From positions 1-17,853 of the forward strand of contig JAKJHQ010000001.1 in NCBI GenBank assembly GCA_022703765.1: DNA of 17,853 nt, given 5' to 3'. The notes beneath the pieces are model-generated. The model ran no database searches and was not told the DNA's origin. It was given only the letters and a program-made list of their open reading frames with translations. Source of the DNA: Candidatus Wallbacteria bacterium (GTDB taxonomy: Bacteria > Muiribacteriota > UBA9980). Shown here piece after piece: positions 1 through 17,853 of the stretch (its first letter is position 1; every line of letters begins with the position of its first letter). The position numbers and the translations under genes were made by a program.

Positions 1-2867
1 AAATTTGTCGTACTCGTCCGCTGGCGCATTCTCTTTTCTAACGCGTCAATTAAATTATCGCGCTTTTCAGCGATTTCGTCTTCTATCGCAAATATGTGCT
101 CGCGCATTTTCCGCTTTTTCTGCTCTAGCTTTGCGATCTGCTCCTGCAGGCCTCCCTGTTCCTCGAGAGTGGGCGCCTGCCTCGCCTGACGCTGAAGTTC
201 GCGTATCTGACGCTTTATGTCGTCGAGCTCCTTCTGGGCGGCAATCTCCATATCCTCGGCCCATTTATCGAGCTGGTCGCGAGCTTCGCTGAAGTGGCGA
301 TTATTTTCTTCAAGGTTTCTGGCGATCGTCGCATTGACATGACGCTCGGTTTCAAGTCTCAGTCTTTCGGCCGTTTTACCGTCGATTTTATCGAGCGCCT
401 GATTTACCGAAGCACCGCAGTTGAATAGTTTTTCGCATGTCTGATGATCTATATTGCCGCCGGAATCGTCAAAAGCTGAAAAGAGCAAATATTCATCACT
501 TTCAAACGAATCGATCTTTAAATGTGATAAATTAAGCCAGCCGGCCTTTCCTTTTAGGCCTTCAATGACGGTATTTTTAAAAGCATGGTTCGTAACATCG
601 AATGATACTTCCGAAGGCGGGCAATCGGCGTCTTTAGCGCGGTTTATTGAAAATTCGCCGAGCGGATGGCTCAGGCGGTATAAAAATTCACCGAGCGCAT
701 TATCTTTGTTTTTGGATATCAGATAATATGTTCCGATAGAAATTTTCTTGTCGGGTGTTTTAGAGAGCGCGAAGGCGAGTTTTTCATCGTCGAATTTAGC
801 GAACTCCGCGAGTGAATATTTCGTTACCGCCCAGAACAACCGGCCTATACGGTCTAATTTATCACGAGTGCCGAGTAAATTGACTTTAAGACGCTCATGA
901 ACGTCTTCATCGAAATGCTCGAGCAATAATTTACGGGTGTCCTTCATCTTAATCTTTATCTGTTCGTCAAGCTCCGCCTGCAATTTCGCGAACGCCGCTT
1001 CTATTTCGGCCGTACTCCTGCACTGCTGGTATATCTCGAGCACACGCCGCTCGAAATCGACGCCCGATTCAATCGAGCCCAGAACGTCGTCTGACGCGCC
1101 GAATAACCCTGTAAATAGATTAAACTTGTTTTCGAGCAATTCGTAAACACGCCTGTCGGCTTCGTTTTTTTCGTTTAAAAAATTGATGACGACGACGTCA
1201 TGCTTCTGACCATAACGGTGACATCTTCCTATGCGCTGCTCGATTCGCTGAGGGTTCCAGGGCAGATCGAAATTTATCACGAGCGAGCAGAATTGAAGGT
1301 TAATACCTTCAGAAGCCGCTTCTGTGGCGAGCATTATGCACGATTCATCACGGAAATGGTCAATTATGGCCGTGCGCGAATCGATGCTGCGCGATCCTGA
1401 AACGCGACCGGTTTTTTTGTTTTTTTCAACCCACTGGTTATAAATCGAAGTCGAGCCTGCGTCGTCATTGCTTCCATTGAATAACAATACTTTACCCGCA
1501 TAGCCGCTGGCCTCGAGAAATTCTTTAAGATAGTCCTGCGTTCTTCGCGATTCGGTAAAAATTACGGCTTTTTTAGCCGCGCCCATTTCTTCCATTTTTG
1601 TAAAGCCTATTTCAAGCGCTTTGATCAATGCTTTCGCTTTGGTATCGACGCCTATTCCTCGCGCCCAGCGAATGTAGCCCTCGATTTCGTCGATTTCGGC
1701 TTTTAATTTATTAATATCGATTTTCGGTTCTTCGGTATTGGCCGCTTCAAGCGCCTCATCGGATTTTTCTACTTCAAAGTCTTCCTCGTCTTCGAGTATT
1801 TCATCGAGCAGATCGTCGTCAAGCGTTTCATTCAATATCAATCGGTCAACGACGCCGGCATTTTTTTGGGTTTCTTCGAGAAGCCGCTTCAATCTGTCGC
1901 GCATGATCTCAAGAGTGCCGGCTACGGCCCGCGGCGACGACGCCAGAACTTTACGCACGATCAAAATCAAAAGATGCTTTTGGTTGTTCGGTATTGCATA
2001 ATTGTCATCTTTTTTTAAAAAGTCGGAAATGGCCTCGTATAATTTATGCTCCTGATCGGTAGGTTTAAAAGGCCTTGTTATAAGTTTTCTTTCGGTATAG
2101 CGAATGTATTCGAGCACCTGGCGCCGTAAAGTCCGCCAGCAGAAAGACCTGATTCGATGGCGCAGCCCTTCCAGATCGCCGCCGTAATTTACATATTGCG
2201 TCCGAAACGATGGAAGATCGCCGAAAAATCTTTCATCTATCAGCAGTGAAAGCCCGTATAATTCGAGCAGTGAGTTTTGCAGCGGCGTCGCCGTCAGCAA
2301 TACTTTTCGCCGGTCTTCGGTCGCCCATTTGATCTTCTGGCCTATGCGGTTACTCTGACGATAAGAGTTTCTTAACTTGTGCGCTTCATCTATTACCACA
2401 AGGTCCCAGGGCGTCTGTTTTATCACGTCAGCCTTCGCTCCGGCAAAATGCATGGAACAAACTACAACGGCATTATTTTTAAACGGATCAGGGTTTCCGT
2501 TTTTAACCTGTTCGCGGTGCGTTTTGGCATCGAGAACGGTCGTCGGAAGGTTGAATTTTTCTGAAAGCTCGATCGCCCATTGTTTTCTGATCGACGCTGG
2601 AGTGATTACAAGAATTTTTCTGCGCCTTTCAGCCCAATGCTGGCATATCACAAGCCCGGCTTCGATGGTCTTGCCTAGCCCGACTTCATCCGCCAGCAAA
2701 ACACCCTTAGAAAGAGGCGAGCGCAGAGCGAATATGGCAGCTTCTATCTGGTGCGGGTTCAAATCGACGCAGGCGTCGAAAAGCGCATTGCCGAGGCGGT
2801 CGATAGACCGGCCGCCGGTGCGCGAAAGCTCATAAGCGAAGTATTTGGCGTGAAATGGAGTGGTCAT
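1..2867 (-). CDS. SNF2-family (DEAH-box) helicase with a C-terminal coiled-coil extension. It is 3'-partial: the C-terminus lies beyond the window start.
   Basis: I translated the reverse complement by eye from the ATG at 2867-2865. The N-terminus reads MTTPFHAKYFAYELSRTGG...DLNPHQIEAAIFAL...LLADEVGLGKTIEAG (SNF2_N motif I, Walker A). A DEAH box (VVIDEAHKLRN) and a TATPLQNSLLELY block follow. The Helicase_C motifs ATEAASEGINLQ and WNPQRIEQRIGRCHRYGQ lie near nt 1200-1500. No stop appears in this frame down to position 1. The plus-strand ORFs the track lists in this region are shadow ORFs. Confidence 0.85.
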   Translation of the reverse strand, partial: MTTPFHAKYFAYELSRTGGRSIDRLGNALFDACVDLNPHQIEAAIFALRSPLSKGVLLADEVGLGKTIEAGLVICQHWAERRRKILVITPASIRKQWAIELSEKFNLPTTVLDAKTHREQVKNGNPDPFKNNAVVVCSMHFAGAKADVIKQTPWDLVVIDEAHKLRNSYRQSNRIGQKIKWATEDRRKVLLTATPLQNSLLELYGLSLLIDERFFGDLPSFRTQYVNYGGDLEGLRHRIRSFCWRTLRRQVLEYIRYTERKLITRPFKPTDQEHKLYEAISDFLKKDDNYAIPNNQKHLLILIVRKVLASSPRAVAGTLEIMRDRLKRLLEETQKNAGVVDRLILNETLDDDLLDEILEDEEDFEVEKSDEALEAANTEEPKIDINKLKAEIDEIEGYIRWARGIGVDTKAKALIKALEIGFTKMEEMGAAKKAVIFTESRRTQDYLKEFLEASGYAGKVLLFNGSNDDAGSTSIYNQWVEKNKKTGRVSGSRSIDSRTAIIDHFRDESCIMLATEAASEGINLQFCSLVINFDLPWNPQRIEQRIGRCHRYGQKHDVVVINFLNEKNEADRRVYELLENKFNLFTGLFGASDDVLGSIESGVDFERRVLEIYQQCRSTAEIEAAFAKLQAELDEQIKIKMKDTRKLLLEHFDEDVHERLKVNLLGTRDKLDRIGRLFWAVTKYSLAEFAKFDDEKLAFALSKTPDKKISIGTYYLISKNKDNALGEFLYRLSHPLGEFSINRAKDADCPPSEVSFDVTNHAFKNTVIEGLKGKAGWLNLSHLKIDSFESDEYLLFSAFDDSGGNIDHQTCEKLFNCGASVNQALDKIDGKTAERLRLETERHVNATIARNLEENNRHFSEARDQLDKWAEDMEIAAQKELDDIKRQIRELQRQARQAPTLEEQGGLQEQIAKLEQKKRKMREHIFAIEDEIAEKRDNLIDALEKRMRQRTSTTN

Positions 2868-2990
2868 TAATAATTCCGTCACTTAACCTGGATATTATAT
2901 AATACCGCTAAATTATACTATAATTTAAACAAAATATGAAGTAAAATTTGATAATTTAGCAATAAAAAAGCGACGAGTATTTTACTTATT
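2868..2990 (-). promoter_or_regulatory. AT-rich upstream region of the SNF2 helicase gene. It probably carries a sigma70-type promoter, including a minus-strand TATAAT around 2912-2917.
   Basis: A non-coding stretch with very low GC lies immediately 5' of the helicase ATG. On the minus strand the sequence reads ...tatagTATAATttagcgg.... I could not identify a clear -35 element. Confidence 0.3.
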
Positions 2991-4808: not shown

Positions 4809-4812
4809 TATG

Positions 4813-6129: not shown

Positions 6130-6188
6130 AATATCAACCTTTTTACTTCGCGAAAATTTTTGTGAACTAAACTTTTCGAGTTATTACC

Positions 6189-7112: not shown

Positions 7113-7807
7113 ACGTCGCCAGAACCGGCGGGATCCTGGGCCGGCGCCTGCGGAATAGGAACGTTGGTCGAGCCGTTCTGGGCGTCTTTAGCCTGGCTGG
7201 CAGGCGCGGAAGCCGATTTAAGGACGGCGGTAGAGACCCATTTAATATATTTAACGAGCGATTCGGGATTATTCGCCTCGAGCGGCTTTATCTCCGGATG
7301 GCCGATGAACTTCTGCAGCACGTCTTTATCGGCATCGGAGCCTATGGCTATCGATATGCGGACCGATTTTCTGCCCCAGGGCAGATCCATAAGTTCTTTC
7401 AGGCCGGACGCATAATCGTCCGTCGGCTGGCCGTCGGAGATCAGTACCAGCACGGGAGGCAGCGCCCTGTCCGACATCGGGGGGATCTTTAACTGTTCAG
7501 CCGTCATTTTAAGCGCGTGGCCGAGATCGGTAACGCCATCCGCGCTGAGGTCGGACCATTTGAAATCTCTGACCGGCGTCGGCTGCGTAATGTGCCACTG
7601 GGCACCGCTGGAAAACTTTATGGCGCGCACCAGCACTTCGGCGTTGGGGTTCTCGTCCGCTACTTTTTGCATGTGAGGTATAGACTCGCGTATTGCGTTA
7701 TTCAGAGACTGGATTTTGCCGTCAACACTCATCGAGCCCGAGCAGTCGCAGATCCATATAAAATGAAGCGGACGGGTCGCAAGCTCGCCGCCTGGAAGTT
7801 TTGCCAT
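7106..7807 (-). CDS. TerY-like von Willebrand factor A (vWA) domain protein, the first gene of the TerY-P triad.
   Basis: A MIDAS motif (DCSGSMS, i.e. DxSxS) follows a hydrophobic strand (HFIWICD). The vWA motif LVLISDGQPTDD is present. On the minus strand a GGAGGA RBS (plus-strand tcctcc at 7817-7822) sits about 9 nt upstream of the ATG. Confidence 0.85.
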   Translation of the reverse strand: MAKLPGGELATRPLHFIWICDCSGSMSVDGKIQSLNNAIRESIPHMQKVADENPNAEVLVRAIKFSSGAQWHITQPTPVRDFKWSDLSADGVTDLGHALKMTAEQLKIPPMSDRALPPVLVLISDGQPTDDYASGLKELMDLPWGRKSVRISIAIGSDADKDVLQKFIGHPEIKPLEANNPESLVKYIKWVSTAVLKSASAPASQAKDAQNGSTNVPIPQAPAQDPAGSGDVW

Positions 7808-8035: not shown

Positions 8036-9142
8036 ATGGGGTTTTATTTCAGAAAATCTAAAAAAATAGGGCCGTTCAGGATCAACTTTTCAAACAAGGG
8101 GATCGGCTTCTCTTCAGGCGTAAAAGGCGCACGCATTTCCACCAATTCAAAAGGAACTTATATAAATATGGGAAGCAACGGCCTCTATTACAGAGAAAAG
8201 ATCGGGCCGGGAATACCGCAGTTGAGTTTTTCTAACTTATTCGGATTGAATAAAAATAGCGGCAAGGGCCGAGCGCCGAACATCCCGAACGCCATTAAAG
8301 CGCCCGCCATAGACGATGGCGTCGATATTAACAATCTGCTTGCCGGGTCAAACGCTCAACTCGTAACGAAAATTAACGATAAAATAAAAACGGCCGGGAT
8401 CATGCCTCTGGTCGTTGCGTTCATAGTTATTTCAGGTTTTTTCGTCATCGTTTCCTATCCGTCTAAAATTTTGATAGTTATGGTCATCGCGATCATATCC
8501 TTCGTTGCGGCCAACATTTACGACAACTCACGGAGAACTTCCGAATTATTTTACGATCTGGACGATCCCGCGCGCGACGATTTCGACAAACTAAACCAGG
8601 CGTTATGCTCGTTATCCACGGCGCGCTTGTTGTGGCAGGTCAATGTGGCCCGCTCCGCAACGCCGTCGGCCGACAATAAGTACGGCCTCAAAGTTACGGG
8701 CCGCCGTGGGATCACTCTGTCAGACGCGCCTCCGCTTTTCATCGAGACCAATCTCGAGGTGTTTTCGATAGATATAGGCGAAGCCTCGCTTTATTTTTTA
8801 CCCGACAGGGTTCTGGTCTGCAAAAATTCGACCTATGCTTCGATCGGCTACGGCGATTTAAAAATAAAGTATACGGCGCTGTCCTTCGCCGAATATGAAA
8901 CCGTCCCGGACGACGCCGGCGTCATATCGCAAACCTACCTGCATGCGAACAGCGACGGCTCTCCCGATAAAAGATATTCGAACAACCCGCAGATACCTGT
9001 CGTTTCTTACGGGCTGCTCAAGTTATATTCAACCGGGGGATTGGAAATAAATCTGATGGTCTCGAATAATATTATCGCCGAAAAATTTTTTAACGATCTT
9101 TCTTCATGCATGAAAAGCATCAGTTCGAGGCTTTTGCCGTAA
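8036..9142 (+). CDS. DUF4236-family protein. It has the conserved N-terminal MGFxFRKSxKIGPFRINxS module, two central transmembrane helices and a C-terminal domain of unknown function.
   Basis: The N-terminus MGFYFRKSKKIGPFRINFSNKGIGFSSGVKGARIS matches the DUF4236 signature. A hydrophobic stretch, IMPLVVAFIVISGFFVIVSYPSKILIVMVIAIISFVAANIY, is consistent with two transmembrane segments. Confidence 0.7.
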   Translation: MGFYFRKSKKIGPFRINFSNKGIGFSSGVKGARISTNSKGTYINMGSNGLYYREKIGPGIPQLSFSNLFGLNKNSGKGRAPNIPNAIKAPAIDDGVDINNLLAGSNAQLVTKINDKIKTAGIMPLVVAFIVISGFFVIVSYPSKILIVMVIAIISFVAANIYDNSRRTSELFYDLDDPARDDFDKLNQALCSLSTARLLWQVNVARSATPSADNKYGLKVTGRRGITLSDAPPLFIETNLEVFSIDIGEASLYFLPDRVLVCKNSTYASIGYGDLKIKYTALSFAEYETVPDDAGVISQTYLHANSDGSPDKRYSNNPQIPVVSYGLLKLYSTGGLEINLMVSNNIIAEKFFNDLSSCMKSISSRLLP

Positions 9143-9155
9143 ATGCGGCGCGGCC

Positions 9156-10307
9156 CTACTGAACATTTGGGGCGAGCTTCGCCAATTCCGCCTTGCATTC
9201 ATCGAATTCGGGGCAAAGTTCCAGGGCGCGGTTATAGTAAAACGCGGCCTTTTCGCGGTCGCCTCTCTGACGGTATGTGTTAGCGAGCCTAAAGCAATAC
9301 TCGTCGTTATCGGGAAAAAGCCTTAAAGCTTCCTCGTAATATTTAACGGCTGAGGCGTAGTCATCAATTTGATAACAGCAGTTTGCCAGTTCAAAGTAAT
9401 AAAAATTATTATTCGGATCTATATCAACAGCTTTTTTCAAATATTTGACCGCTTCGGAATAGCCGTTCCGGGCTATCTTGATCCTGGCCGTCTGATAGTA
9501 ATATTCGGATTTTGAGTCATCGATCGATAACGCGGTATCAATATTTTTAAGAGACCTATCATAGTCAATTAATTCAAGATACGCGCAGGATAATTTGTAA
9601 TAGTAGCCGGCGGCGTAAGCAGTAGCTTGCGCGGTTAATTTTTCATAGTCGGCGGCGGCGGCCTTAAAATTCGCGATGTTAAAATTAGAGTTGGCGCGGT
9701 ACAGATAAGCCATAGAATAGTCAGGGTTCAGCTCGAGCACATGGCTGAAATCGTCGATCGCTTTTTCAAAAAAACCCAGATTATAGTAAGCCAGGCCGCG
9801 GGCATTGTATAGTTCGAAGTAAAACTGGTCGTATTCTAGAGCCTTATCGAAGCAGACAAGTGCCTGCTCATATTTAAACTCACTGACGAGTTCCAGGGCG
9901 CGGTTGTAATGAGTAAAAAAATCCCTTTCAGGGCGTTGCGGCCCGCTGAATACTATCCGTTCCGTCACGGGCTCCTGAGAATCTTCCAGAGAGTCTTCCG
10001 GCAATATCCCGAATGCGAACGCCCAGGAGTCGACTGCCCAGAATGCGCATTCTTTGGTAGTACCGTAATTGTCGATGATCTTTTTTGCAATGGACTGGCG
10101 GTCAAGCTGATAAGGAACCCTTTTTGCGTTTATCGCCGCGACGGATTCTTTTTGCGCGCATAGAAGCAGAAATATCTCGAGTTTGCGCGAACCGAAAAGA
10201 TCCTTAAAAAGACTTTCCAGGCGCTTCGGATCGTTTACGACATTAAAGCCGTAAATGTCAATAATTTCCTTTAATTTTTTTCGCACGTTATTGCCGTTTT
10301 TATCCAT
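9156..10307 (-). CDS. TPR-repeat protein. Its N-terminal ~100-aa domain is paralogous to the N-terminus of the FGE-like protein.
   Basis: 383 aa. There are multiple TPR-like repeats (for example AYYNLGFFEKAIDDFSHVLELNPDYSMAYLYRANS and ALRLFPDNDEYCFRLANTYRQRGDREKAAFYYNRALEL). The N-terminus, KLKEIIDIYGFNVVNDPKRLESLFKDLFGSRKLEIFLLLCAQKESVAA, aligns with the FGE-like protein segment KLFEILENHGNLIYLDEKRLEGLLKDLCGAYKREINLVMAAVRSGVAK. Confidence 0.85.
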   Translation of the reverse strand: MDKNGNNVRKKLKEIIDIYGFNVVNDPKRLESLFKDLFGSRKLEIFLLLCAQKESVAAINAKRVPYQLDRQSIAKKIIDNYGTTKECAFWAVDSWAFAFGILPEDSLEDSQEPVTERIVFSGPQRPERDFFTHYNRALELVSEFKYEQALVCFDKALEYDQFYFELYNARGLAYYNLGFFEKAIDDFSHVLELNPDYSMAYLYRANSNFNIANFKAAAADYEKLTAQATAYAAGYYYKLSCAYLELIDYDRSLKNIDTALSIDDSKSEYYYQTARIKIARNGYSEAVKYLKKAVDIDPNNNFYYFELANCCYQIDDYASAVKYYEEALRLFPDNDEYCFRLANTYRQRGDREKAAFYYNRALELCPEFDECKAELAKLAPNVQ

Positions 10308-10391
10308 AACTATTGCTTTACAATCCTTCGATAATTTTATACCATAAAATTAATATATTTTCAATATTATCTTTTGACGTATTACATATTT

Positions 10392-10442
10392 TTGACATTT
10401 TTGATATAAACGATTGACATCAAAATAGGTTAGTATTATAAT
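10392..10442 (+). promoter_or_regulatory. Consensus sigma70 promoter for the zorA-like gene. The -35 TTGACA is at 10414-10419, followed by a 17-nt spacer and the -10 TATAAT at 10437-10442. A second TTGACA lies upstream at 10392-10397.
   Basis: Read directly from the sequence. An AGAGG RBS at 10462-10466 sits 6 nt before the ATG at 10473. Confidence 0.5.
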
Positions 10443-10472
10443 ACCGAATATTTATTCATAAAGAGGTAATTT

Positions 10473-12560
10473 ATGCAGGAATATTCGAATTTAATAAATC
10501 TTACGATGTGCTGCTTAATAGGCATTGCATTTTTGATTTTCAGGATATCTCTGATCATCCCCATCAAGAATTTGAGGAAAAAACTTACATTTATCAATAA
10601 CAGGCTGACCTTATTCAAGTTCAATGACGAAACCGAGCTGGCCGTATTTTTAAAAGAAAATTTTAAAAATTTCGCCACACTTGCGGAAATTTATACGGAC
10701 TTCATAGAAGAAAGGTCTTTGAATATAATTGAATATTCTGGCAAAACATACAGCCACATCAAACATTCCGATTTTTTCAGCGCCGAAAATATTTCAGAAA
10801 AATTGCTCAATTTAAGGATGATAAATTCCATACCCGGCATAATGACAGGCCTTGGCATACTTGGCACCTTCATCGGCCTTATAATAGGCATTTCTTCAAT
10901 CCATATAACGAAGGGCGAGATATTACTAAACGACATTCAATCCCTTCTGTCGGGCATGAACATAGCCTTCTTAACTTCGATCGTTGGAATAATACTCGGA
11001 CTGTACTGGATCCTTAATGAAAAGCGCCATTATAAGAACCTTTTGATCGAGATTGAAAAATTTAATATCAACATAGAAAAGTACTATCCGACGATAGATC
11101 TCGAGCACATCATCATAAAAAGCATGATCTCGAACATTAAGAACAACGAGATCCTGCCCCAGAAATTTGAAAGCGTAAATAAGACGCTTGAGCTGACGGC
11201 CGACAGGATAATCGAATCTCAAAACAAAAGTTTCTCTTTGATATCATCGAGCATAAACTCAGGTCTTAAAGACGAATTCCTGCCTGAAATAAAGAAAGCG
11301 ATCGATCAATCGTTCGAATACACCAATAAGGCGATGAGCTTTCTGACGGAGTTCACCGCGACGCTTGACACACTGAAAGACGATCTTTTGAGGGTTAGCG
11401 CGGAGCACAAAGAGAACGCAATAACCGTCAAAACCGAGATCAAAGCCATAATGAACTCCATAAAGGAAAGTTTCGAGATAACTTCTAAATTCAGGGATTT
11501 CGCCAAGACGCTCAACGCAACGTTTGAAAAGGCGACGGGCAACATGAATCAAACTGTAAATAAAATGAATGAATTTTCAAATAAAATAGTCGAGTCGGCC
11601 GATAAATTCGAGGCCGGGTTAAATCAGTTCTCTGAAAAATTTCTGAACGGGAAACAGCAGGTCGAGATAAATATCAAAAAACTAGCGTCAGAAATATCGA
11701 TTTTGACTAATAGCTTCAATGATACTTTTGAAAAGATCAAGGTCGAAGCGGTTGATTTCAGCGGCGAACTCGATCGTATCGTTCATAAGGCCATTTTCAT
11801 ATTCAACAAACAACTCAGCTGCTATGAAGGCCTGCCAAATAAAATAGCGGACGTCGTGGCCAACAAGATCAACAGGGCGTTCGACAGCAACAAACTCGCA
11901 GATTCGGTAAAGGCGATAAGCGACGAGCTGGTGATCAAGTTTATCGGTATAAAGGATATGCTGAAGAACGCGACCGACAGCCTCGGCGGCAGCATCGCCA
12001 ATCTGGGCGACACCTTTGAAGTATATTCGCAGCAGATGAAAAGCCTGCCGGAAGATATCAGCATTGAAATATCCAAAAAAATCCAGACCGCGTTCGACAG
12101 TTCTGATAACTTCAAGATGTTCGGCGAGTTCAAAAACTCTCTTAATGAATTTAACAATAATTTCTCGGCGCAGGTCAAGGAAGCCGCCAGGGCCATCGGC
12201 GGCTCAGTAATGTCGAGCGTCAAGGACATTGAGTCGTTCCTCATGAAGACCAATAAGATTTTTGGCGATTTCCAGCGTTCCATAAATGGCATCGAAGACA
12301 AAATGCGCGAGACAGGCGAATTCTTAGAGAAATCAGCCGGCCTGCTGGGAACGAACCTGAGCCAAAGTTTCAACCAGACATTCTCCGTTTTTGACGAGCA
12401 GTTGTCAAAAATTTCAATGCGCCTGAGTGGCACTATAACGGAGATCGATTCAGCGGTTAAGGATATTCCAGCAGTGATAAACGAATTTCAGAACGCGCTC
12501 GACTCGCAGATCGGTTTAATCCAAAAGGAAGCGGTAAAAAATAATAATTTAAAACAATAA
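10473..12560 (+). CDS. zorA: ZorA-like protein, with a MotA/TolQ/ExbB-type proton-channel transmembrane core and a ~500-aa cytoplasmic coiled-coil tail.
   Basis: 695 aa. The transmembrane segments are LINLTMCCLIGIAFLIF, SIPGIMTGLGILGTFIGLIIGISSI and GMNIAFLTSIVGIILGLYWIL, a MotA/ExbB-like signature. A long heptad-rich alpha-helical tail follows. The gene sits immediately upstream of a MotB/OmpA partner, as in Zorya. Confidence 0.75.
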   Translation: MQEYSNLINLTMCCLIGIAFLIFRISLIIPIKNLRKKLTFINNRLTLFKFNDETELAVFLKENFKNFATLAEIYTDFIEERSLNIIEYSGKTYSHIKHSDFFSAENISEKLLNLRMINSIPGIMTGLGILGTFIGLIIGISSIHITKGEILLNDIQSLLSGMNIAFLTSIVGIILGLYWILNEKRHYKNLLIEIEKFNINIEKYYPTIDLEHIIIKSMISNIKNNEILPQKFESVNKTLELTADRIIESQNKSFSLISSSINSGLKDEFLPEIKKAIDQSFEYTNKAMSFLTEFTATLDTLKDDLLRVSAEHKENAITVKTEIKAIMNSIKESFEITSKFRDFAKTLNATFEKATGNMNQTVNKMNEFSNKIVESADKFEAGLNQFSEKFLNGKQQVEINIKKLASEISILTNSFNDTFEKIKVEAVDFSGELDRIVHKAIFIFNKQLSCYEGLPNKIADVVANKINRAFDSNKLADSVKAISDELVIKFIGIKDMLKNATDSLGGSIANLGDTFEVYSQQMKSLPEDISIEISKKIQTAFDSSDNFKMFGEFKNSLNEFNNNFSAQVKEAARAIGGSVMSSVKDIESFLMKTNKIFGDFQRSINGIEDKMRETGEFLEKSAGLLGTNLSQSFNQTFSVFDEQLSKISMRLSGTITEIDSAVKDIPAVINEFQNALDSQIGLIQKEAVKNNNLKQ

Positions 12561-12638
12561 TTTAAAGAAACAACAACAGAAGCAAAAGTAAAAACTATAT
12601 TAACAATAATAGTTAATAATACAAATATAGGTATCAAC

Positions 12639-13460
12639 TTGTTCAACAAGCAATTAAAACAACACGATTTAAGCGATAAAAACGACTTTCTCATCTCGAT
12701 CTCAGACCTGATGACCGGGATAATGATGATCTTCGTGCTCACCCTTATCGCGGTCTTATACAGCAAAACGACCGATGTGGTTCAATACGTAAGAGAAATC
12801 GAGGCCAAGAAGGAAACATTAGCTAAAATACAATCCGAACTCGACCATAAAACCGAACAATTAAAGCTTAAAGAAAACGCGCTCGACTCAAAGGAGATCG
12901 AACTAAAATATTACAAAGACCAGATCGAAAAAATTATAGGCATCAAGAGCTCTATAATCAATCTGATCAAGGAAAAATTCGAACGGTCGTCGTCTAATCT
13001 GAAACTGGCAGTCGATCCGTTCACAGGGGCGATCCGGATAAGCGGCGATATTTTATTCGATACCGACTCCGACGCCATTAAAGAAGAATTCAAGCCTCTG
13101 CTAAAACTGCTGCTGGAAACTTACGTCAACATCCTATTCGACACTCAGGAGTTCATAGACCATCTCGCAGAAATAGTCATAGAAGGCCATGCGGACAACC
13201 GCGGCGACTACATTTATAATCTTGATCTTTCGCAGCGCCGCGCGCAGTCTATCATGAAATATTTCATTCAGGTGGTCGATCCGGCCAAAAAAGAGCTTTT
13301 CCAGAAATTCGTGACGGCGAACGGCAAATCGTTCAGCGTTCCGATCAAAGACCCGACCGGGAACGTCGATCTTGACAAATCACGCCGCATCGAGGTCAAA
13401 TTCAGGTTAAAGGACGACGAGGCGTTGAAAGAACTTTCGAAATTACTGGATCAAAAATAA
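12639..13460 (+). CDS. zorB: ZorB-like protein, with a MotB-type plug and transmembrane helix plus a C-terminal OmpA-like peptidoglycan-binding domain. The start codon is TTG.
   Basis: 273 aa. The DFLISISDLMTGIMMIFVL segment (MotB plug and transmembrane helix; compare the ZorB/MotB WISYADLMT motif) is present. The OmpA-like motifs GHADNRGDYIYNLDLSQRRAQSI are also present. Confidence 0.8.
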   Translation: MFNKQLKQHDLSDKNDFLISISDLMTGIMMIFVLTLIAVLYSKTTDVVQYVREIEAKKETLAKIQSELDHKTEQLKLKENALDSKEIELKYYKDQIEKIIGIKSSIINLIKEKFERSSSNLKLAVDPFTGAIRISGDILFDTDSDAIKEEFKPLLKLLLETYVNILFDTQEFIDHLAEIVIEGHADNRGDYIYNLDLSQRRAQSIMKYFIQVVDPAKKELFQKFVTANGKSFSVPIKDPTGNVDLDKSRRIEVKFRLKDDEALKELSKLLDQK

Positions 13461-13477
13461 GCGGGCAGTGACAAACT

Positions 13478-14689
13478 ATGGCATCCGACTCGAATCGCGA
13501 CAAGGGAATATTTATAAATTTAAGCAGCTGCACGCCGACCAGACTTATCGAAGCGGCCGAGACGATCGCGCGTACGCATAAGCGGCACTCTAAAAATGAC
13601 GAGACGCTTTCGGCCGCGTCGGGGCCCGACAACTTTGACGAATTGCTCAAGAAGATAAAGCGCGGGGGCCGCAACGAACTCGTTAAAATAGCGTTCGCGC
13701 TCACCAGGCGGGAGGCTTTATTTTTATTGACCGCTTTAAAGAACGAAGATGATTCATTCTGCGATAAAGTCCTCGCCATAGTAGGACTTCGCAGACAGAT
13801 ATTCAAATTCTCGCTTTTCTGGAACGCGCTGGTGTTATCGCCCGAAAATAAAAATCTTTATTCATTGACGATCGCAACCACGTCGGCCGGAGGCGATCAA
13901 AAAAGGCCGGGCACGGAGGGCATAAATATGGTCGAAGCAGAGAGATTTTTCATCAAAAGTCAGCCGGCCTCTTTCATCGACGGCCTATTCATTTTATACC
14001 AGAATAAAAAATACATATTGAGTAACTTTTGCGCCTATTATTCGATACACAAAGACGGCTTTTTACACGGGCTGATGATAAAGAAGATTATGACGGGGTA
14101 CGAGCCTGAATTCGGAAGGCTTGAGGGCGACATCCAAATTTTTTCATATTTAACGAAGCACCTGTCAAAAGAAGAGGCGATTCAATTCGCCGGAAAATAT
14201 TTCAGCCAGACACCCGACGATGCCTGGAACGAGTTGATATTGAATTATTTTTTCCACCTGCTCGGAACGCCTTCCAACATGGACAACTGGAATTTCGTCA
14301 CGGGACCGGTTCTGAAAAAACTGCAGAACAGATACAGCATCGCCGAGATAAGAAAATTTTTCGACAAGCTCGACAAAGACAACGTCCGGTTCAACTTCTG
14401 GCAAAAGAACTACGGCCAGCGCTTCACGAACGCCTATAAATTCAGCCAGATAAACGCCATTCTAATGTATATCGAAAACATCGCGATCCTCGAATTCGCC
14501 AACATCGGCAACGCCTGTTACGTTTATAAAGCCGAATTCGCCGACCTGCTGATCAGAAAATTTTACAACTCATCATACGAGTCAAAACTGAAATATCCAG
14601 AACAAGCTCTGTTCAGGGTCATACACAAGCAGGACTGGCAGTACGAAGCGCTCGCGAGGATAAATAGCGCTATAGGTAATAAAATCTAA
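13478..14689 (+). CDS. Hypothetical 403-aa protein co-directional with zorAB. It may be a ZorC-like (EH-signature) protein or a novel Zorya partner. I found no nuclease or NTPase motifs.
   Basis: An ORF lies 17 bp after zorB on the same strand. The sequence is alpha-helical and aromatic-rich with no HNH, Walker or PD-(D/E)xK motifs. The ZorC-like assignment rests only on position and length. Confidence 0.55.
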   Translation: MASDSNRDKGIFINLSSCTPTRLIEAAETIARTHKRHSKNDETLSAASGPDNFDELLKKIKRGGRNELVKIAFALTRREALFLLTALKNEDDSFCDKVLAIVGLRRQIFKFSLFWNALVLSPENKNLYSLTIATTSAGGDQKRPGTEGINMVEAERFFIKSQPASFIDGLFILYQNKKYILSNFCAYYSIHKDGFLHGLMIKKIMTGYEPEFGRLEGDIQIFSYLTKHLSKEEAIQFAGKYFSQTPDDAWNELILNYFFHLLGTPSNMDNWNFVTGPVLKKLQNRYSIAEIRKFFDKLDKDNVRFNFWQKNYGQRFTNAYKFSQINAILMYIENIAILEFANIGNACYVYKAEFADLLIRKFYNSSYESKLKYPEQALFRVIHKQDWQYEALARINSAIGNKI

Positions 14690-14708
14690 TCATTTAAAAT
14701 CAGGACTT

Positions 14709-15239
14709 TTATATATCATCTTCTTCGTCTTCTTGTTCAAATCTTCGTTCGCCTTCATACCGATCATAATATCCGTTATTTTCTTCAAATTCCTCCTCTT
14801 CAGTTATTTCTTTGAGCCTCCTTGTATATTCTAAGTAATCTCTTTCTTCATCAGCACTTATTTCATATTCAATCTCCTCTTCTTTTCTGAGACATATTTC
14901 TTCGTCATCATCCATAAGATCATCTAGATCGATTTCATAATCTCCTGATTCATGTATAATTTGTTCTTCGACATCACGATCTATTTCCTCTTCAGTTAAA
15001 TTTTCTATTTCTTCTTCATCAATTTCCTTTTCTTTTAAGTATTCTTTTTCTTCCTTTTCTTTTTCTCTTTCTTCTTTATTTCTAATTTCTCCTTCGGTTT
15101 CTTCAATATCACAACCACATATAGGACATTCACCGTCATCAGTTATATAACCATAATAACCACATTCCGGACAAGTAACTTCATCATCAAACAATATTAT
15201 ACTCCTATTTTCAAAACGTTGAAAAACATGATTATTCAA
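14709..15239 (-). CDS. Hyper-acidic zinc-ribbon protein (N-terminal CPEC...CPICGC followed by a ~130-aa Glu/Asp-rich tail). It is a candidate DNA mimic or regulator.
   Basis: 176 aa. About 45% of residues are D or E after the zinc ribbon. The gene is very AT-rich, with GAA/GAG codon runs. It starts 7 nt after the SF1 helicase stop. Confidence 0.65.
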   Translation of the reverse strand: MNNHVFQRFENRSIILFDDEVTCPECGYYGYITDDGECPICGCDIEETEGEIRNKEEREKEKEEKEYLKEKEIDEEEIENLTEEEIDRDVEEQIIHESGDYEIDLDDLMDDDEEICLRKEEEIEYEISADEERDYLEYTRRLKEITEEEEFEENNGYYDRYEGERRFEQEDEEDDI

Positions 15240-15246
15240 TCAGCAG

Positions 15247-16998
15247 TTATAATTTTTCAGAGTTTATAACTTCAGAACTCTCAATAATCTTCTTAAATAT
15301 TTCCGTTTCATCTTTCGAGAAGTAATTCTGGTTCAAAAGATAATCTCGGTTTCCAACAATTATCAGTAATTCTTTAGCACGCGAAAGTGCAACATTGATT
15401 AACTCTTTTCTTGCAGTAAGTCTTGTCGGTTTAACTTCGTCGTCGCAGATATTCATAATAATGACGCTTTTTTCCTGGCCCTGAAATGAATGAATCGTCG
15501 ATACCTGTACTTGTTCAAAATACTCTGGATTGATTTTAATGAGTTCAGTGGACTTTGCGAGAACCTCTTTAATTTTGACTATCTGGGCGTTATAAGGTGC
15601 GATAATGCCAATTTCTTCAGATTTAAATTCCTTATTGTTTACAAGTTTAATTGTTATTCCGGCAATCGCTTCGGCATGCTTTTCATTGAATCTTCTTTCT
15701 TCCGTTCCATTTATAACGGCGCCGTTTATGTTTTCAATTTTTCCCTTACAATTTATAAACACTATATTGCTTTTGAAAGTTCCTTTAATGTCTTTTTTTG
15801 CCGTGCCCGTCTTTAACTCGCCTTCGTAAAATAGATCGCTTACAAGATTTCCAATCGGCTCCTGCATCCTGTACTGCGTATCGAGAAATGCTGTTCTTTC
15901 GTCGTGCCGTTCAACCTTTGCCATATCAAAAATATTCCGGCTAAACCAGGCATTCGGCTTGTCGGCGTCATCCGGGAATATAGGAGGAAGCTGCATGGGA
16001 TCTCCACCCAGAACCACGCCTTTTTTGGCGTAATAACAAGCCGCGATGATTGCCGGTATGCTGGCCATGGACATTTCGTCTGCAATAACGAAATCAACCG
16101 GACCCGGATCAGCGGTTTTAGGCGAGGCAAGCGACGCAAAGTTAGTGGCTACGCAGGTACAAAGGCTCACATGCTCGTTCCATGTAAAAGCGTTTCGCTT
16201 GATCCTATATTGCCTGTTCTGATATATGTCTCGGCTAAAAATCTTTACCGAATCATGCATATTATCAACGCTGCCCGTTCTTGCGACCGTAATATTGAAT
16301 TTGTTGAGCGGCGAGGCTGATTCCAGTGTAGATATGAGGAGCTGGTCCAGTGCCTTATTTGATAAAGCGGTCAGCAAAACCCGCTTACCGTTTTTTATAA
16401 GATGAGATGCGAGAGCGCCCATAGTTTTGGTTTTTCCGGTTCCAGGCGGCCCCCATACGAATGTGATATTTTGCGATAATGCTTTTTTGACGGCCTTTAT
16501 TTGAGATTCGTTAAGTTTATCGGCGGCAAATGCAGCGACGACTTCCTTATGATCAGATAAAACCGATTTATCGAGTAGTGACGATACTATCTCGTTTGGG
16601 TTTGTCGAATTAATCGTCAAAAAATTCAAAAGATCGGCGGTTAATCTTCTGCCGTCCATAATATAATCGATTCCAAAATCTGTAATTTGTCGCAGATTAA
16701 AATTATCTATCCCGCTCGATCTTAAAACCGCTTTTTCAAATGTTACTTTAACCCCGTTTGAAACTTTTTCGAACTTTCCGTTAACGAATAGATCGCCGAC
16801 CCTGAACAACGGCTCATAAACGTATTTAATGTCTCTTAAAACCCTTTCGGGCGCGTTACGAAAAACAACTGAATAAGACCCGTCTGAATCGCTTTCACCA
16901 GCCTTTCCATACATAAAATAGCGGGCGCGGTTACGCGGCTCATCGAGACGGGTAATTTCAGATTTAACCGACTCCTGTATTTCATTAAGGTCAATCAT
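15247..16998 (-). CDS. Upf1/DNA2-like SF1B helicase (AAA_11/AAA_12 type).
   Basis: Q-motif LNESQIKAV, Walker A FVWGPPGTGKTKT, Walker B VIADEMSMAS, motif III VLGGDPMQLPPI, motif IV DTQYRMQEPIG, motif V VSTIHSFQGQEKSVII and motif VI VALSRAKELLIIVG. The start overlaps the upstream gene by 8 nt. Confidence 0.9.
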   Translation of the reverse strand: MIDLNEIQESVKSEITRLDEPRNRARYFMYGKAGESDSDGSYSVVFRNAPERVLRDIKYVYEPLFRVGDLFVNGKFEKVSNGVKVTFEKAVLRSSGIDNFNLRQITDFGIDYIMDGRRLTADLLNFLTINSTNPNEIVSSLLDKSVLSDHKEVVAAFAADKLNESQIKAVKKALSQNITFVWGPPGTGKTKTMGALASHLIKNGKRVLLTALSNKALDQLLISTLESASPLNKFNITVARTGSVDNMHDSVKIFSRDIYQNRQYRIKRNAFTWNEHVSLCTCVATNFASLASPKTADPGPVDFVIADEMSMASIPAIIAACYYAKKGVVLGGDPMQLPPIFPDDADKPNAWFSRNIFDMAKVERHDERTAFLDTQYRMQEPIGNLVSDLFYEGELKTGTAKKDIKGTFKSNIVFINCKGKIENINGAVINGTEERRFNEKHAEAIAGITIKLVNNKEFKSEEIGIIAPYNAQIVKIKEVLAKSTELIKINPEYFEQVQVSTIHSFQGQEKSVIIMNICDDEVKPTRLTARKELINVALSRAKELLIIVGNRDYLLNQNYFSKDETEIFKKIIESSEVINSEKL

Positions 16999-17853
16999 AA
17001 TTTATTCTCGGTAATACTCTATAATTTCCGTTTTCCCAATCCTTATAAGGATTATCCAATATATTCCTCCAGGCTTCGTAAGGATTTTGAATTATTTCTA
17101 CCTGCGATTCCGACTTGCCGACGTTATAAACTTTGCAAATGTAATAATTTTCCTTCAATTCTTTTGCTTTCTTCCACTGCGCCCTGCTCGGCATTACCCA
17201 ATTATCCGTTTTAACTTCAAAATACTTACGAATTCCGTTTTCTGTAACGTCGATGTCTCTTCCAATGGCATTAACTTTTGAGCTGTTGACCAATTCTAAT
17301 TTTAATATTTCTTTTCCGTCGTCAATCAGCGCGAAAATATTTTCGCCATCGCAAGTTTTCCAGGTTGCGGACGGGTATAATTCTTTATAATATACTTCTT
17401 TTAAAAACTTAATTACAGTTAATTCTCCTCTGAACCCAATATTTTTCAATGACTCAGGGTTGCTCATTTTTCTTTTTTTTACGCCCGTAGTTGCGGTTTC
17501 TTCATTATCACATTCATATTGAAAATCATCAGAACATTTTGTATCGCTAGATGTGGCTCTGGTTACTTTAACATCATCGATTTTGCTGCATTCCGGCACC
17601 CAAATTTCGTTATTGAATTTTTCAGTTTGGTCAACAGACGAAGGCCTTTTTTTTGTACTCTTTTCATTAATTTCCCCTACTTTAGACGTACTTTCATCGA
17701 TCTGAATTTCAGTTTTTCCCCTTTTTCTTCTGAGAGCTTCGTTCAAATCTTCGATATCAAGTTCCAAAGCTATTTTAAGCTTGTCTCTGCATTTGTCGTC
17801 GCTTATTTTATTGATTGCTTCAAGCAATGAATCCTGCATAAAACTTAATTCTT
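16991..17853 (-). CDS. DUF3883-like protein with a restriction-endonuclease-fold (PD-(D/E)xK) domain. It may be 5'-partial: the frame is open upstream of the ATG at 17839 to the window end.
   Basis: The C-terminal part reads GRDIDVTENGIRKYFEVKTD...YYICKVYNV, which matches the DUF3883 core (D-x-D ... E-V-K-T, then Y-x-x-Y-x-V). A basic, low-complexity N-terminal half is present. There is no in-frame stop between 17839 and 17853, so the true start may lie beyond the window. Confidence 0.6.
   Translation of the reverse strand, partial: ELSFMQDSLLEAINKISDDKCRDKLKIALELDIEDLNEALRRKRGKTEIQIDESTSKVGEINEKSTKKRPSSVDQTEKFNNEIWVPECSKIDDVKVTRATSSDTKCSDDFQYECDNEETATTGVKKRKMSNPESLKNIGFRGELTVIKFLKEVYYKELYPSATWKTCDGENIFALIDDGKEILKLELVNSSKVNAIGRDIDVTENGIRKYFEVKTDNWVMPSRAQWKKAKELKENYYICKVYNVGKSESQVEIIQNPYEAWRNILDNPYKDWENGNYRVLPRINYD

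What the first reader, a model, noticed from the sequence alone, without database searches (positions are those of the whole stretch)
10473..14689. ZorAB-like motor pair with a non-canonical gene complement (no adjacent ZorD or ZorE)
ZorA-like (MotA/ExbB core plus long tail) and ZorB-like (MotB plug plus OmpA) genes are clearly present. In described Zorya types they are accompanied by ZorC plus ZorD (SNF2 helicase), ZorE (HNH), or ZorF plus ZorG. Here only one 403-aa protein without HNH or helicase motifs follows. The only SNF2 helicase is 7.6 kb away on the opposite strand, behind the TerY-P operon. A convergent SF1-helicase and PD-(D/E)xK module abuts instead. This could be a new Zorya subtype, or a ZorAB motor re-wired to a different nuclease-helicase effector.
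Basis: partly seen in the sequence, partly recalled or inferred. Interest (0 to 1): 0.75.

Follow-up and report, generated by a model that had tools for sequence, protein, structure and literature searches.

The report
Zorya type I operon lacking ZorD
This is a three-gene remnant or variant of the type I Zorya anti-phage system: the ZorA-ZorB membrane motor and the DNA-binding protein ZorC are kept intact by selection, the usual nuclease-helicase ZorD is missing, and the neighbouring helicase-nuclease genes are an unrelated, separately exchanged cassette.

Summary
Window 10473-14689 encodes ZorA (695 aa), ZorB (273 aa) and a 403-aa protein. The 403-aa protein is a ZorC, not a new partner. It matches PADLOC ZorC models. 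All five tested residues of the E. coli ZorC EH-motif network are present. Its model matches only E. coli ZorC in the PDB.

No ZorD lies within about 16 kb upstream or 8 kb downstream. The SNF2 gene 7.6 kb away is DrmD-like and sits in an operon with type III Mod and Res homologues.

The convergent module is a Tiamat-like TmtA (1056 aa, cut by the window end) plus an SF1 helicase.
- The same pair occurs without Zorya in two other contigs.
- It is absent from a more distant ZorABC relative.
- Its synonymous divergence differs sharply from that of zorABC.
Re-wiring to this module is therefore not supported.

ZorD-less zorABC recurs in three loci. ZorB and ZorC are under purifying selection (dN/dS 0.03 and 0.09). 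On a ZorB tree these loci cluster with ZorAB-only pairs, nested inside canonical type I, and ZorB carries a lengthening linker in this clade.

Canonical relatives place zorD directly after zorC in 39 of 45 loci. I rate this a rare ZorD-less variant of a known system. Its effector step is unknown.

The parts
10414..10442 (+). Promoter-like site upstream of zorA (TTGACA, 17 nt, TATAAT; 12 of 12 matches). An AAGAGG ribosome-binding site precedes the ATG.
   Evidence: The site is conserved in L002. It is a consensus match only and has not been shown to function.
10473..12560 (+). zorA, 695 aa: MotA/ExbB-type membrane core plus a long helical tail.
   Evidence: PADLOC ZorA1 at 6.8e-32 over nearly the full length. 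Pfam MotA_ExbB at 24.5 bits. PDB 8vvn and 8qyd ZorA. 86% identical in L002 and 42% in L004.
12639..13460 (+). zorB, 273 aa: TM helix with Asp23 in the motif SISDLMTG, a helical linker about 30-40 aa longer than in canonical ZorB, and an OmpA-type peptidoglycan-binding domain.
   Evidence: PADLOC ZorB1 at 2.7e-61. Pfam OmpA. PDB ZorB chains. Alignment with canonical ZorB. dN/dS 0.03 against L002.
13478..14689 (+). zorC, 403 aa: EH-signature core domain, without the C-terminal globular domain of E. coli ZorC.
   Evidence: PADLOC ZorC1 at 3.5e-08. Pfam EH_Signature at 22 bits, below the 27.5-bit cut-off. 91 representative relatives, most about 380-410 aa. Motif D301-R304-W308...E339...H383. AF2 model with pLDDT 87.9 whose only significant PDB match is 8r68 ZorC. 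dN/dS 0.09.
9156..10307 (-). TPR protein, 383 aa, transcribed divergently from zorA. It is the only neighbour conserved at all three ZorD-less zorABC loci. It is a candidate accessory gene; membership is unproven.
   Evidence: Pfam TPR families. Same position and orientation in L002 (fragment, 78% identical) and L004 (31% identical over the full length).
14709..15239 (-). Neighbour judged not part of the system: 176-aa zinc-ribbon protein, 41% Asp+Glu, pI about 4.
   Evidence: Replaced by a non-homologous 206-aa gene in L002 and a 230-aa TPR gene in L082.
15247..16998 (-). Neighbour judged independent: SF1 (Dna2/Upf1-type, AAA_11/AAA_12) helicase, 583 aa.
   Evidence: Pfam. PADLOC MkoA C-terminal region at 7e-62. 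Paired with a TmtA-like gene without Zorya in L082 and L088. dS breakpoint near codon 450, about window 15650.
16991..17853 (-). Neighbour judged independent: C-terminal 286 codons (NOV_C domain) of a 1056-aa TmtA-like protein (sacsin/HATPase N-terminus plus NOV_C). The gene is cut by the window end.
   Evidence: The full gene is in L081, which is 100% identical to window 12316-17853. PADLOC TmtA at 4.8e-78.
3..2882 (-). Not part: DrmD-like SNF2 helicase, 969 aa in full, running off the window start.
   Evidence: PADLOC DrmD at 1.6e-208 against ZorD at 2e-31. Followed in L085 by MTase_III (6e-205) and REase_III (1e-146) homologues. A ZorD HMM built here scores it 127 bits on the helicase core only, against 741-1198 bits for true ZorD.

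Best explanation
The locus is a ZorD-less derivative of a type I Zorya system, consisting of zorA-zorB-zorC behind its own promoter. It sits in a mosaic defence island of a Candidatus Wallbacteria-type MAG.

Shown here:
- The three proteins are ZorA, ZorB and ZorC.
- No ZorD is linked.
- The arrangement recurs in three diverged loci and is under purifying selection.
- The flanking helicase/nuclease cassette and the SNF2 gene belong to other systems.

Inferred mechanism, by homology with E. coli Zorya I (Hu et al. 2024):
- ZorA5B2 is a proton-driven motor anchored to peptidoglycan through ZorB.
- Envelope perturbation at phage entry activates it.
- The long ZorA tail recruits ZorC, which binds the incoming dsDNA through the EH-motif face.

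The DNA-destroying step that ZorD performs is not encoded in the operon. I think ZorC capture most likely hands DNA to a nuclease supplied in trans. That could be an unlinked ZorD or another resident nuclease. Alternatively, capture blocks the DNA by sequestration alone. This last step is speculation.
For: Identity:
- PADLOC ZorA1, ZorB1 and ZorC1 hits.
- Best PDB sequence hits are Zorya chains.
- The ZorC model has pLDDT 87.9, and its single significant PDB match is 8r68 ZorC (prob 1.0, 374 aligned columns).
- D301, R304, W308, E339 and H383 correspond to the EcZorC network D332, R335, W339, E400 and H443. The DxxRxxxW spacing is identical.

Absence of ZorD:
- None in the window, nor 3 kb further (L081), nor 8 kb past zorC in L002, nor 6 kb before the window start (L085).

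Recurrence and selection:
- Same zorABC without zorD in L002 (ZorC 76% identical) and L004 (ZorC 31%, ZorB 63%).
- dN/dS is 0.03 for ZorB and 0.09 for ZorC, with saturated dS.

Derivation from type I:
- The nearest further ZorC relative (L089) sits in a canonical zorABCD locus.
- 39 of 45 genome loci with at least 1 kb downstream have zorD directly after zorC.
- A ZorB NJ tree places window, L002 and L004 with the ZorAB-only pairs in one clade inside type I.
Against: - In E. coli and Shewanella type I systems, ZorABC without ZorD gives no protection (PMC11946911; PMC11890865). A ZorD-less operon may therefore not defend at all.
- An unlinked ZorD could not be searched for, because the full genome is not available here.
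- Only three ZorD-less zorABC loci were found, possibly from related organisms. The recurrence could be inherited synteny.
- The tree is a neighbour-joining sketch without support values.
- EcZorC needs its C-terminal domain to bind DNA, and this ZorC lacks it. However, short ZorCs in canonical zorABCD loci lack it too (L011, L064, L089).
- No experiment supports any step.
Confidence: 0.55

Rival explanations
1. The ZorAB(C) motor is re-wired to the convergent SF1 helicase plus PD-(D/E)xK (TmtA-like) module, which replaces ZorD as the nuclease-helicase effector.
For: - The module abuts zorC with a 19-nt gap in the window and in L002.
- It combines a helicase with a nuclease-fold domain, as ZorD does.
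Against: - The TmtA-like plus helicase pair occurs without any Zorya gene in L082 and L088.
- zorABC in L004 has no such module.
- Between the window and L002, dS is about 0.1-0.6 for TmtA and helicase codons 0-450. It is saturated for helicase codons 450-583, ZorC, ZorB and ZorA. The two blocks therefore have different histories.
- The gene between them is non-homologous in the two genomes.
- The orientation is convergent, so it is not one operon.
Confidence: 0.07
2. A new Zorya subtype in which the divergently transcribed TPR protein is the fourth component. It may work together with the TerY-P kinase/phosphatase/VWA switch next to it. It would act as an adaptor replacing ZorD.
For: - The TPR gene is the only neighbour kept in the same place and orientation at all three ZorD-less loci. 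It is 31% identical over its full length in L004, the same divergence as ZorC.
- A VWA-PP2C-kinase triad lies beyond it in both the window and L004.
- TerY-P triads are known accessories of several restriction-type systems (PMC10542128).
Against: - There are only three loci.
- The TPR protein has no catalytic domain.
- The TPR family and its ~110-aa N-terminal domain are multi-copy in these genomes.
- The L004 triad is not the closest relative of the window triad: VWA is 38% identical against 61% for another L004 copy, and the kinase 29% against 57%. It is followed by a 1164-aa SF1 helicase and so may serve another system.
- A DUF4236 gene separates the triad from the TPR gene in the window.
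- The canonical type I loci surveyed gave no hit to the window's TPR protein at E <= 1e-3, though most of these 8-kb blocks reach only a few kb upstream of zorA, and some not at all.
Confidence: 0.15
3. A non-functional remnant of a type I Zorya that lost zorD and is decaying.
For: - ZorD is essential in the tested systems.
- Close relatives on the ZorB tree have also lost zorC (L072-L080).
- The ZorC/ZorB identity ratio for window versus L004 (0.49) is at the low end of the range for canonical pairs in the same ZorB-identity band (0.53-0.73).
Against: - All three ORFs are intact in three lineages separated by saturated synonymous divergence.
- dN/dS is 0.03-0.09.
- All five tested residues of the EcZorC EH-motif network are kept.
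- A consensus promoter and ribosome-binding site are conserved.
Confidence: 0.1
4. The clade's ZorAB has been taken over for a non-defence envelope function. The window's zorABC would be an intermediate on that path.
For: - The nearest ZorB relatives outside window, L002 and L004 are ZorAB-only pairs.
- Two of their lineages (P0098, P0099) share the same conserved housekeeping-type neighbourhood: DegT aminotransferase, polyprenyl synthase and secretin.
- The ZorB linker grows from 236-259 aa total protein length in canonical ZorB to 273, 299, 324 and 439-458 aa in this clade. In the published model, a short ZorB reach to peptidoglycan is what makes the motor an infection sensor.
Against: - The window locus lies in a dense defence island and keeps ZorC.
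- Nothing here tests the function of the orphan pairs.
- The tree has no support values.
Confidence: 0.13

Closest known systems
Type I Zorya (ZorABCD), e.g. E. coli EcZorI (Hu et al., Nature 2024, PMC11946911) and Shewanella ANA-3 (PMC11890865)
   Same: - ZorA with a MotA-like core and long tail.
- ZorB with the TM aspartate and an OmpA-type domain.
- ZorC with the EH-signature core.
- Gene order A-B-C in one operon.
- PADLOC type I models are the best hits for all three proteins.
   Different: - No ZorD, either adjacent or within the flanks read.
- ZorC is 403 aa without the C-terminal globular domain. This is also true of many canonical Firmicutes-type ZorCs.
- ZorB carries a helical linker about 30-40 aa longer.
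Type II (ZorABE) and type III (ZorABFG) Zorya
   Same: A ZorAB motor pair with an accessory gene set other than ZorCD.
   Different: - No HNH ZorE and no DUF3348/DUF2894 ZorF/ZorG.
- ZorA and ZorB score best against type I models.
- A ZorC is present.
Orphan ZorAB pairs found here (L072-L075, L076-L080)
   Same: - They are the closest ZorB relatives (44-50% identity).
- They have no ZorD.
- They have a lengthened ZorB linker.
- They fall in the same clade on the ZorB tree.
   Different: - They have also lost ZorC.
- Some lie in conserved non-island neighbourhoods.
- ZorA is shorter in L076-L080 (516-536 aa); the L072-L075 ZorA ORFs run off the contig ends, so their length is unknown.
Tiamat (TmtA) defence gene (PADLOC models PDLC03964-03972). 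This applies to the neighbouring cassette, not to the finding itself.
   Same: The 1056-aa protein matches TmtA models at both ends (4.8e-78). It has a sacsin/HATPase-like N-terminus and a NOV_C C-terminus.
   Different: - It is shorter than most TmtA models (1056 aa, against 1302-1782 positions for eight of the nine models and 1063 for the ninth).
- It is always followed by a separate ~580-aa SF1 helicase in the three lineages seen.
- As far as I know, Tiamat is described as a single gene.
MotAB / ExbBD / TolQR 5:2 ion-driven motors
   Same: A MotA/ExbB-type channel domain and a MotB-like TM-plus-OmpA partner.
   Different: - A ~480-aa cytoplasmic tail on the A subunit.
- The best profile and PDB matches are Zorya chains.
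- The pair is linked to a ZorC.

Membership tests
Zorya type I | ZorA: MotA/ExbB-like membrane core with a long C-terminal tail | tested here: met
   PADLOC ZorA1 at 6.8e-32, residues 8-667 against model positions 27-645 of 699. PDB 8vvn at 4e-14 and 8qyd at 4e-09. Pfam MotA_ExbB above its cut-off.
Zorya type I | ZorB: TM helix with the conserved aspartate plus a peptidoglycan-binding OmpA-like domain | tested here: met
   PADLOC ZorB1 at 2.7e-61. Pfam OmpA at 40.7 bits. Asp23 aligns with the invariant Asp of the SDLM/SDMM motif in all ZorBs compared. Its equivalence to EcZorB D26 is from memory of the published sequence and was not aligned here.
Zorya type I | ZorC: EH-signature domain protein | tested here: met
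   PADLOC ZorC1 at 3.5e-08. Pfam EH_Signature at 22 bits, below the 27.5-bit cut-off. A family profile finds 91 representative relatives, and relatives recovered through the shared EH motif (66 genome loci) and the next-nearest representative (L089) lie in zorAB(C)D loci. Foldseek gives 8r68 ZorC as the only significant hit. The D-R-W-E-H network is conserved.
Zorya type I | ZorD: SNF2-type helicase/nuclease encoded next to zorC, or before zorA in some lineages | tested here: not met
   No ZorD-like ORF in the window, L081, L002 or L004 using a ZorD HMM built from 30 canonical neighbours. The only SNF2 gene is DrmD-like. The rest of the genome could not be searched.
Zorya type II | ZorE HNH endonuclease next to zorAB | tested here: not met
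   No ZorE hit among any neighbouring protein scanned with PADLOC.
Zorya type III | ZorF (DUF3348) and ZorG (DUF2894) next to zorAB | tested here: not met
   No ZorF/ZorG or DUF3348/DUF2894 hit.
Tiamat (neighbouring cassette) | TmtA: large ATPase-domain protein matching TmtA profiles | tested here: inconclusive
   TmtA at 4.8e-78, but only model positions about 30-654 and 1072-1287 of 1302 are covered. A separate SF1 helicase always follows. Defence activity was not tested.
DISARM class 1 (SNF2 gene at window start) | DrmD SNF2 helicase together with DrmMI, DrmA, DrmB and DrmC | tested here: inconclusive
   The SNF2 matches DrmD at 1.6e-208. The next two genes score best as MTase_III and REase_III, not as DrmMI or DrmA. 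The contig ends before any DrmB or DrmC could be seen.

The most novel reading that the evidence does not exclude
A lineage of type-I-derived Zorya motors has dispensed with ZorD, and in some members with ZorC as well, while lengthening the ZorB linker. In this reading, the window's zorABC plus its conserved divergent TPR gene is a working fourth Zorya arrangement. Its ZorA tail would signal through ZorC and/or the TPR adaptor to effectors that are not SNF2 nucleases. Alternatively it is a step towards a non-defence envelope role of the ZorAB motor.
Probability: 0.2. Interest if true: 0.7.

Novelty: new variant of a known kind. Interest (0 to 1): 0.42.

Why it matters
Every tested type I Zorya needs ZorD. 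A zorABC module kept under purifying selection without a linked ZorD would mean one of three things:
- ZorD can act from an unlinked locus.
- ZorC capture of DNA is useful on its own.
- The ZorA tail can signal to other partners.

The same clade contains ZorAB-only pairs and ZorBs with progressively longer linkers. That offers a natural series for testing two open points of the published model. One is how the reach of ZorB to peptidoglycan sets the sensing threshold. The other is what the tail actually recruits.

The practical lesson is more modest. Adjacency inside a defence island is not evidence of coupling. Here the synonymous-divergence break shows that the neighbouring cassette was exchanged separately.

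Tried and rejected
I replaced it with a degenerate DNA pattern for EFxxxGNAAY[VIM]Y in genome contigs. This gave 66 loci in fixed 8-kb blocks, so some contexts are cut.
- A metagenome scan with the window/L002/L004 ZorC alignment found nothing. The ZorB alignment found only an identical fragment and L072.
- I tested whether ZorC evolves abnormally fast after ZorD loss. The ZorC/ZorB identity ratio of 0.49 is the lowest in its band but only just below canonical pairs at 0.53-0.58. That is not a clear signal.
- I first read the SNF2 operon as DISARM class 1 from Pfam domains. PADLOC then called the next genes type III Mod and Res, so I withdrew that label.
- L081's shorter gene calls for ZorC and ZorB looked like pseudogenes. 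The DNA is 100% identical to the window, so they are gene-caller choices.
- Loci L012, L014, L018, L054 and L059 show no ZorD in the block. Three are myxobacterial, and the D-A-B-C order seen in L027 and L028 may hide zorD outside the block. I did not count them as ZorD-less.
- The ~110-aa N-terminal domain shared by the TPR and FGE-sulfatase proteins has no Pfam match.
- Rfam, tRNA and repeat scans of the window found nothing relevant.
- The Anantharaman 2012 Ter-system paper, which I believe defined the TerY-P triad and the EH_Signature domain, is not held in the library.

Full report
**Gene map**

The window carries the following genes, in order.

| Coordinates | Strand | Gene or product |
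|---|---|---|
| 3-2882 | - | SNF2 helicase, running off the window start |
| 3283-4422 | - | FGE-sulfatase-domain protein |
| 4419-4808 | - | TerY-C zinc-binding protein |
| 4813-6129 | - | Ser/Thr kinase |
| 6189-7112 | - | PP2C phosphatase |
| 7106-7807 | - | VWA protein |
| 8036-9142 | + | DUF4236 membrane protein |
| 9156-10307 | - | TPR protein |
| 10473-12560 | + | zorA |
| 12639-13460 | + | zorB |
| 13478-14689 | + | 403-aa ORF |
| 14709-15239 | - | Acidic zinc-ribbon protein |
| 15247-16998 | - | SF1 helicase |
| 16991-17853 | - | NOV_C-domain ORF, running off the window end |

Domain assignments come from Pfam and PADLOC. The genes from FGE-sulfatase to VWA form a TerY-P-type operon. 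A 12-of-12 sigma-70 consensus (10414-10442) and an AAGAGG site precede zorA. Identical proteins are named by NCBI as from 'bacterium ADurb.Bin243' and 'Candidatus Wallbacteria bacterium'.

- ZorA aligns nearly end to end with a PADLOC ZorA1 model (6.8e-32). Its best solved relatives are type I ZorA chains 8vvn and 8qyd.
- ZorB hits ZorB1 at 2.7e-61, has a Pfam OmpA domain, and its best solved relatives are ZorB chains.
- This is not an ordinary Mot/Exb/Tol pair.

**The 403-aa protein is ZorC**

- PADLOC gives six ZorC1 models, the best at 3.5e-08. Pfam EH_Signature scores 22 bits, just under its cut-off.
- A profile search of 1.84 billion representatives found 91 relatives, most about 380-410 aa.
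- I scanned reference genomes for the shared motif EFxxxGNAAY[VIM]Y. The 66 loci were nearly all zorA-zorB-zorC followed at once by an SNF2 gene.
- The protein keeps D301-x2-R304-x3-W308, E339 and H383. These match the spacing of the D332-R335-W339, E400 and H443 network that Hu et al. describe in E. coli ZorC.
- An AlphaFold2 model (mean pLDDT 87.9) has one significant PDB match, 8r68 ZorC, with probability 1.0 over 374 aligned columns. The next hits are armadillo-repeat noise at E > 0.1.
- It lacks the C-terminal globular domain that E. coli ZorC needs for DNA binding. So do the ~390-aa ZorCs of canonical zorABCD loci such as L011, L064 and L089.

**ZorD is absent from the neighbourhood**

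- I built a ZorD HMM from 30 full-length SNF2 genes that adjoin zorC in canonical loci. It finds nothing in L002 or L004.
- In the window it finds only the SNF2 at 3-2882. That scores 127 bits on the helicase core, against 741-1198 bits for the true ZorDs.
- The same SNF2 scores 693 bits against a PADLOC DrmD model.
- In L085, which overlaps the window and extends about 6 kb beyond its start, the SNF2 is followed co-directionally by homologues of a type III methyltransferase (6e-205) and a type III restriction enzyme (1e-146). It belongs to that operon.
- L081 is 100% identical to window 12316-17853 and extends 2964 nt past the window end. L002 extends 8 kb past zorC. Neither holds a ZorD.

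**The convergent module is a separate cassette**

- L081 shows that the truncated NOV_C ORF is the end of a 1056-aa protein. It has a sacsin/HATPase-like N-terminus and a NOV_C C-terminus, and it matches PADLOC TmtA (Tiamat) at 4.8e-78. Its stop overlaps the helicase start.
- The same TmtA-like plus SF1 helicase pair occurs in L082 and L088 among toxin-antitoxin, Schlafen-like and AAA+ genes, with no Zorya gene. The helicases are about 60% identical and TmtA is 37-55% identical.
- L004, the more distant zorABC relative, has no such pair after zorC.
- Between the window and L002, synonymous divergence is about 0.1-0.6 across TmtA and helicase codons 0-450. It is saturated (above 1.1) for helicase codons 450-583, ZorC, ZorB and ZorA.
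- The small gene in between is non-homologous in the two genomes.
- There is therefore a recombination breakpoint near window 15650. The cassette has been exchanged independently of zorABC.

**What is unusual**

- zorABC without zorD recurs in L002 (ZorA 86%, ZorB 92%, ZorC 76% identical) and in L004 (42%, 63%, 31%).
- Selection is clearly purifying. dN/dS is 0.03 for ZorB and 0.09 for ZorC, at saturated dS.
- The next ZorC relative (L089) is in a canonical zorABCD locus.
- Among 45 reference-genome loci with at least 1 kb after zorC, 39 have zorD directly adjoining. One shows the order D-A-B-C (L027); the same order is seen in L028, which has too little downstream DNA to be counted.
- The closest ZorB relatives outside this trio are ZorAB-only pairs with no ZorC or ZorD ORF in any frame (L072-L080). 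Two lineages share a conserved housekeeping-type neighbourhood.
- A neighbour-joining ZorB tree, without support values, groups the window, L002, L004 and these orphans in one clade nested among canonical type I systems.
- Within that clade the helical linker between the ZorB TM helix and its OmpA domain grows. Total ZorB length is 273, 299, 324 and 439-458 aa, against 236-259 aa in canonical ZorB.

**The conserved neighbour**

- The only gene kept beside zorABC in all three loci is the divergently transcribed TPR protein. It is 31% identical over its full length in L004.
- A VWA-PP2C-kinase triad lies beyond it in both the window and L004. However, the L004 triad is not the closest relative of the window's, and it is followed by a 1164-aa SF1 helicase.
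- TerY-P triads are known accessories of several restriction-type systems and also work alone (PMC10542128).
- I treat TPR linkage as a lead, not a finding.

**Mechanism**

What is shown is the parts list. What follows is inferred by homology with E. coli Zorya I.
- A ZorA5B2 proton-driven motor is activated at the site of phage entry.
- A rotating tail recruits ZorC.
- ZorC binds dsDNA without sequence specificity.

In tested systems ZorD then degrades the DNA, and ZorABC alone does not protect. Here that step must be supplied in trans, replaced, or dispensed with. I cannot tell which. Three subtypes were recognised in the 2024-2025 papers I read. PADLOC's relaxed '_other' rules would flag such partial loci. 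I found no description of a ZorD-less zorABC lineage.

**Verdict**

This is a real Zorya locus and a rare ZorD-less variant of type I, not a re-wired motor. It is of moderate interest, mainly for the clade-level pattern. That pattern rests on few loci and needs a proper census and experiments.

Noticed in passing
window 12639-13460 (ZorB residues about 43-100); L004 9102-10001; L072 1396-2370; L076 10001-11320; L079 10001-11377: The helical linker between the ZorB TM helix and the OmpA domain lengthens stepwise in the ZorD-less clade. Total ZorB length is 273, 299, 324 and 439-458 aa, against 236-259 aa in canonical ZorB. The published sensing model depends on a short ZorB reach to peptidoglycan.
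   Followed up: partly
window about 15650 (inside the SF1 helicase gene), compared with L002: There is a sharp break in synonymous divergence. dS is about 0.1-0.6 for TmtA and helicase codons 0-450, and saturated for helicase codons 450-583 and all of zorABC. This marks a recombination junction inside a gene. The small ORF next to it is swapped for a non-homologous one.
   Followed up: yes
window 9156-10307 (TPR protein aa 6-111) and 3283-4422 (FGE-sulfatase protein aa 3-113); L004 11209-13314 (C-terminus), 5706-6812, 14024-15334: A ~110-aa domain with no Pfam match is shared by the N-termini of the TPR protein and the FGE-sulfatase protein. It also occurs in several L004 proteins. All of them lie near Ser/Thr kinase genes, so it may be a docking or substrate module.
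   Followed up: partly
window 14709-15239 (-): A 176-aa protein with an N-terminal CxxC...CxxC zinc ribbon followed by a tail that is 41% Asp+Glu (pI about 4). It has no family match. It sits between zorC and the helicase cassette and is not conserved in L002 or L082. It could be a DNA mimic or a regulator.
   Followed up: no
window 3-2882 (-) and L085 4368-12941: A DrmD-like SNF2 helicase (969 aa) heads an operon with a 1131-aa type III-like methyltransferase and a type III Res-like helicase. The arrangement is either DISARM class 1-like or an SNF2-assisted type III R-M.
   Followed up: partly
window 3283-7807 (-), promoter-like site 7872-7843: A TerY-P-type operon (VWA, PP2C, kinase, TerY-C zinc-binding protein, FGE-sulfatase protein) lies behind a 12-of-12 sigma-70 consensus. 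It is probably a stand-alone or accessory defence switch.
   Followed up: partly
window 8036-9142 (+): A DUF4236 protein (368 aa) with a hydrophobic central segment lies between the TerY-P operon and the TPR gene. No gene lies between the VWA gene and the TPR gene in L004.
   Followed up: no
L027 1094-7999 and L028 587-7773: Some genomes (Polyangiaceae, Silvanigrellaceae) carry type I Zorya in the order zorD-zorA-zorB-zorC rather than A-B-C-D.
   Followed up: partly
L004 1-6812: In L004 the VWA-PP2C-kinase triad next to the TPR/zorABC block is followed by a 1164-aa Upf1/Dna2-type SF1 helicase. This resembles the TerY-P plus helicase part of CoCoNuT-type systems.
   Followed up: no
L076-L080: ZorA-like (516-536 aa) plus long ZorB (439-458 aa) pairs lie in a neighbourhood conserved between two lineages: DegT aminotransferase upstream, and a radical-SAM-like gene, polyprenyl synthase and secretin downstream. 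This looks like core-genome rather than island context.
   Followed up: partly
window 10001-12000 and 14501-16000: G+C falls to 0.34-0.42 over zorA and over the acidic-protein and helicase region, against 0.46-0.53 in the TerY-P operon. This is consistent with a mosaic island.
   Followed up: no
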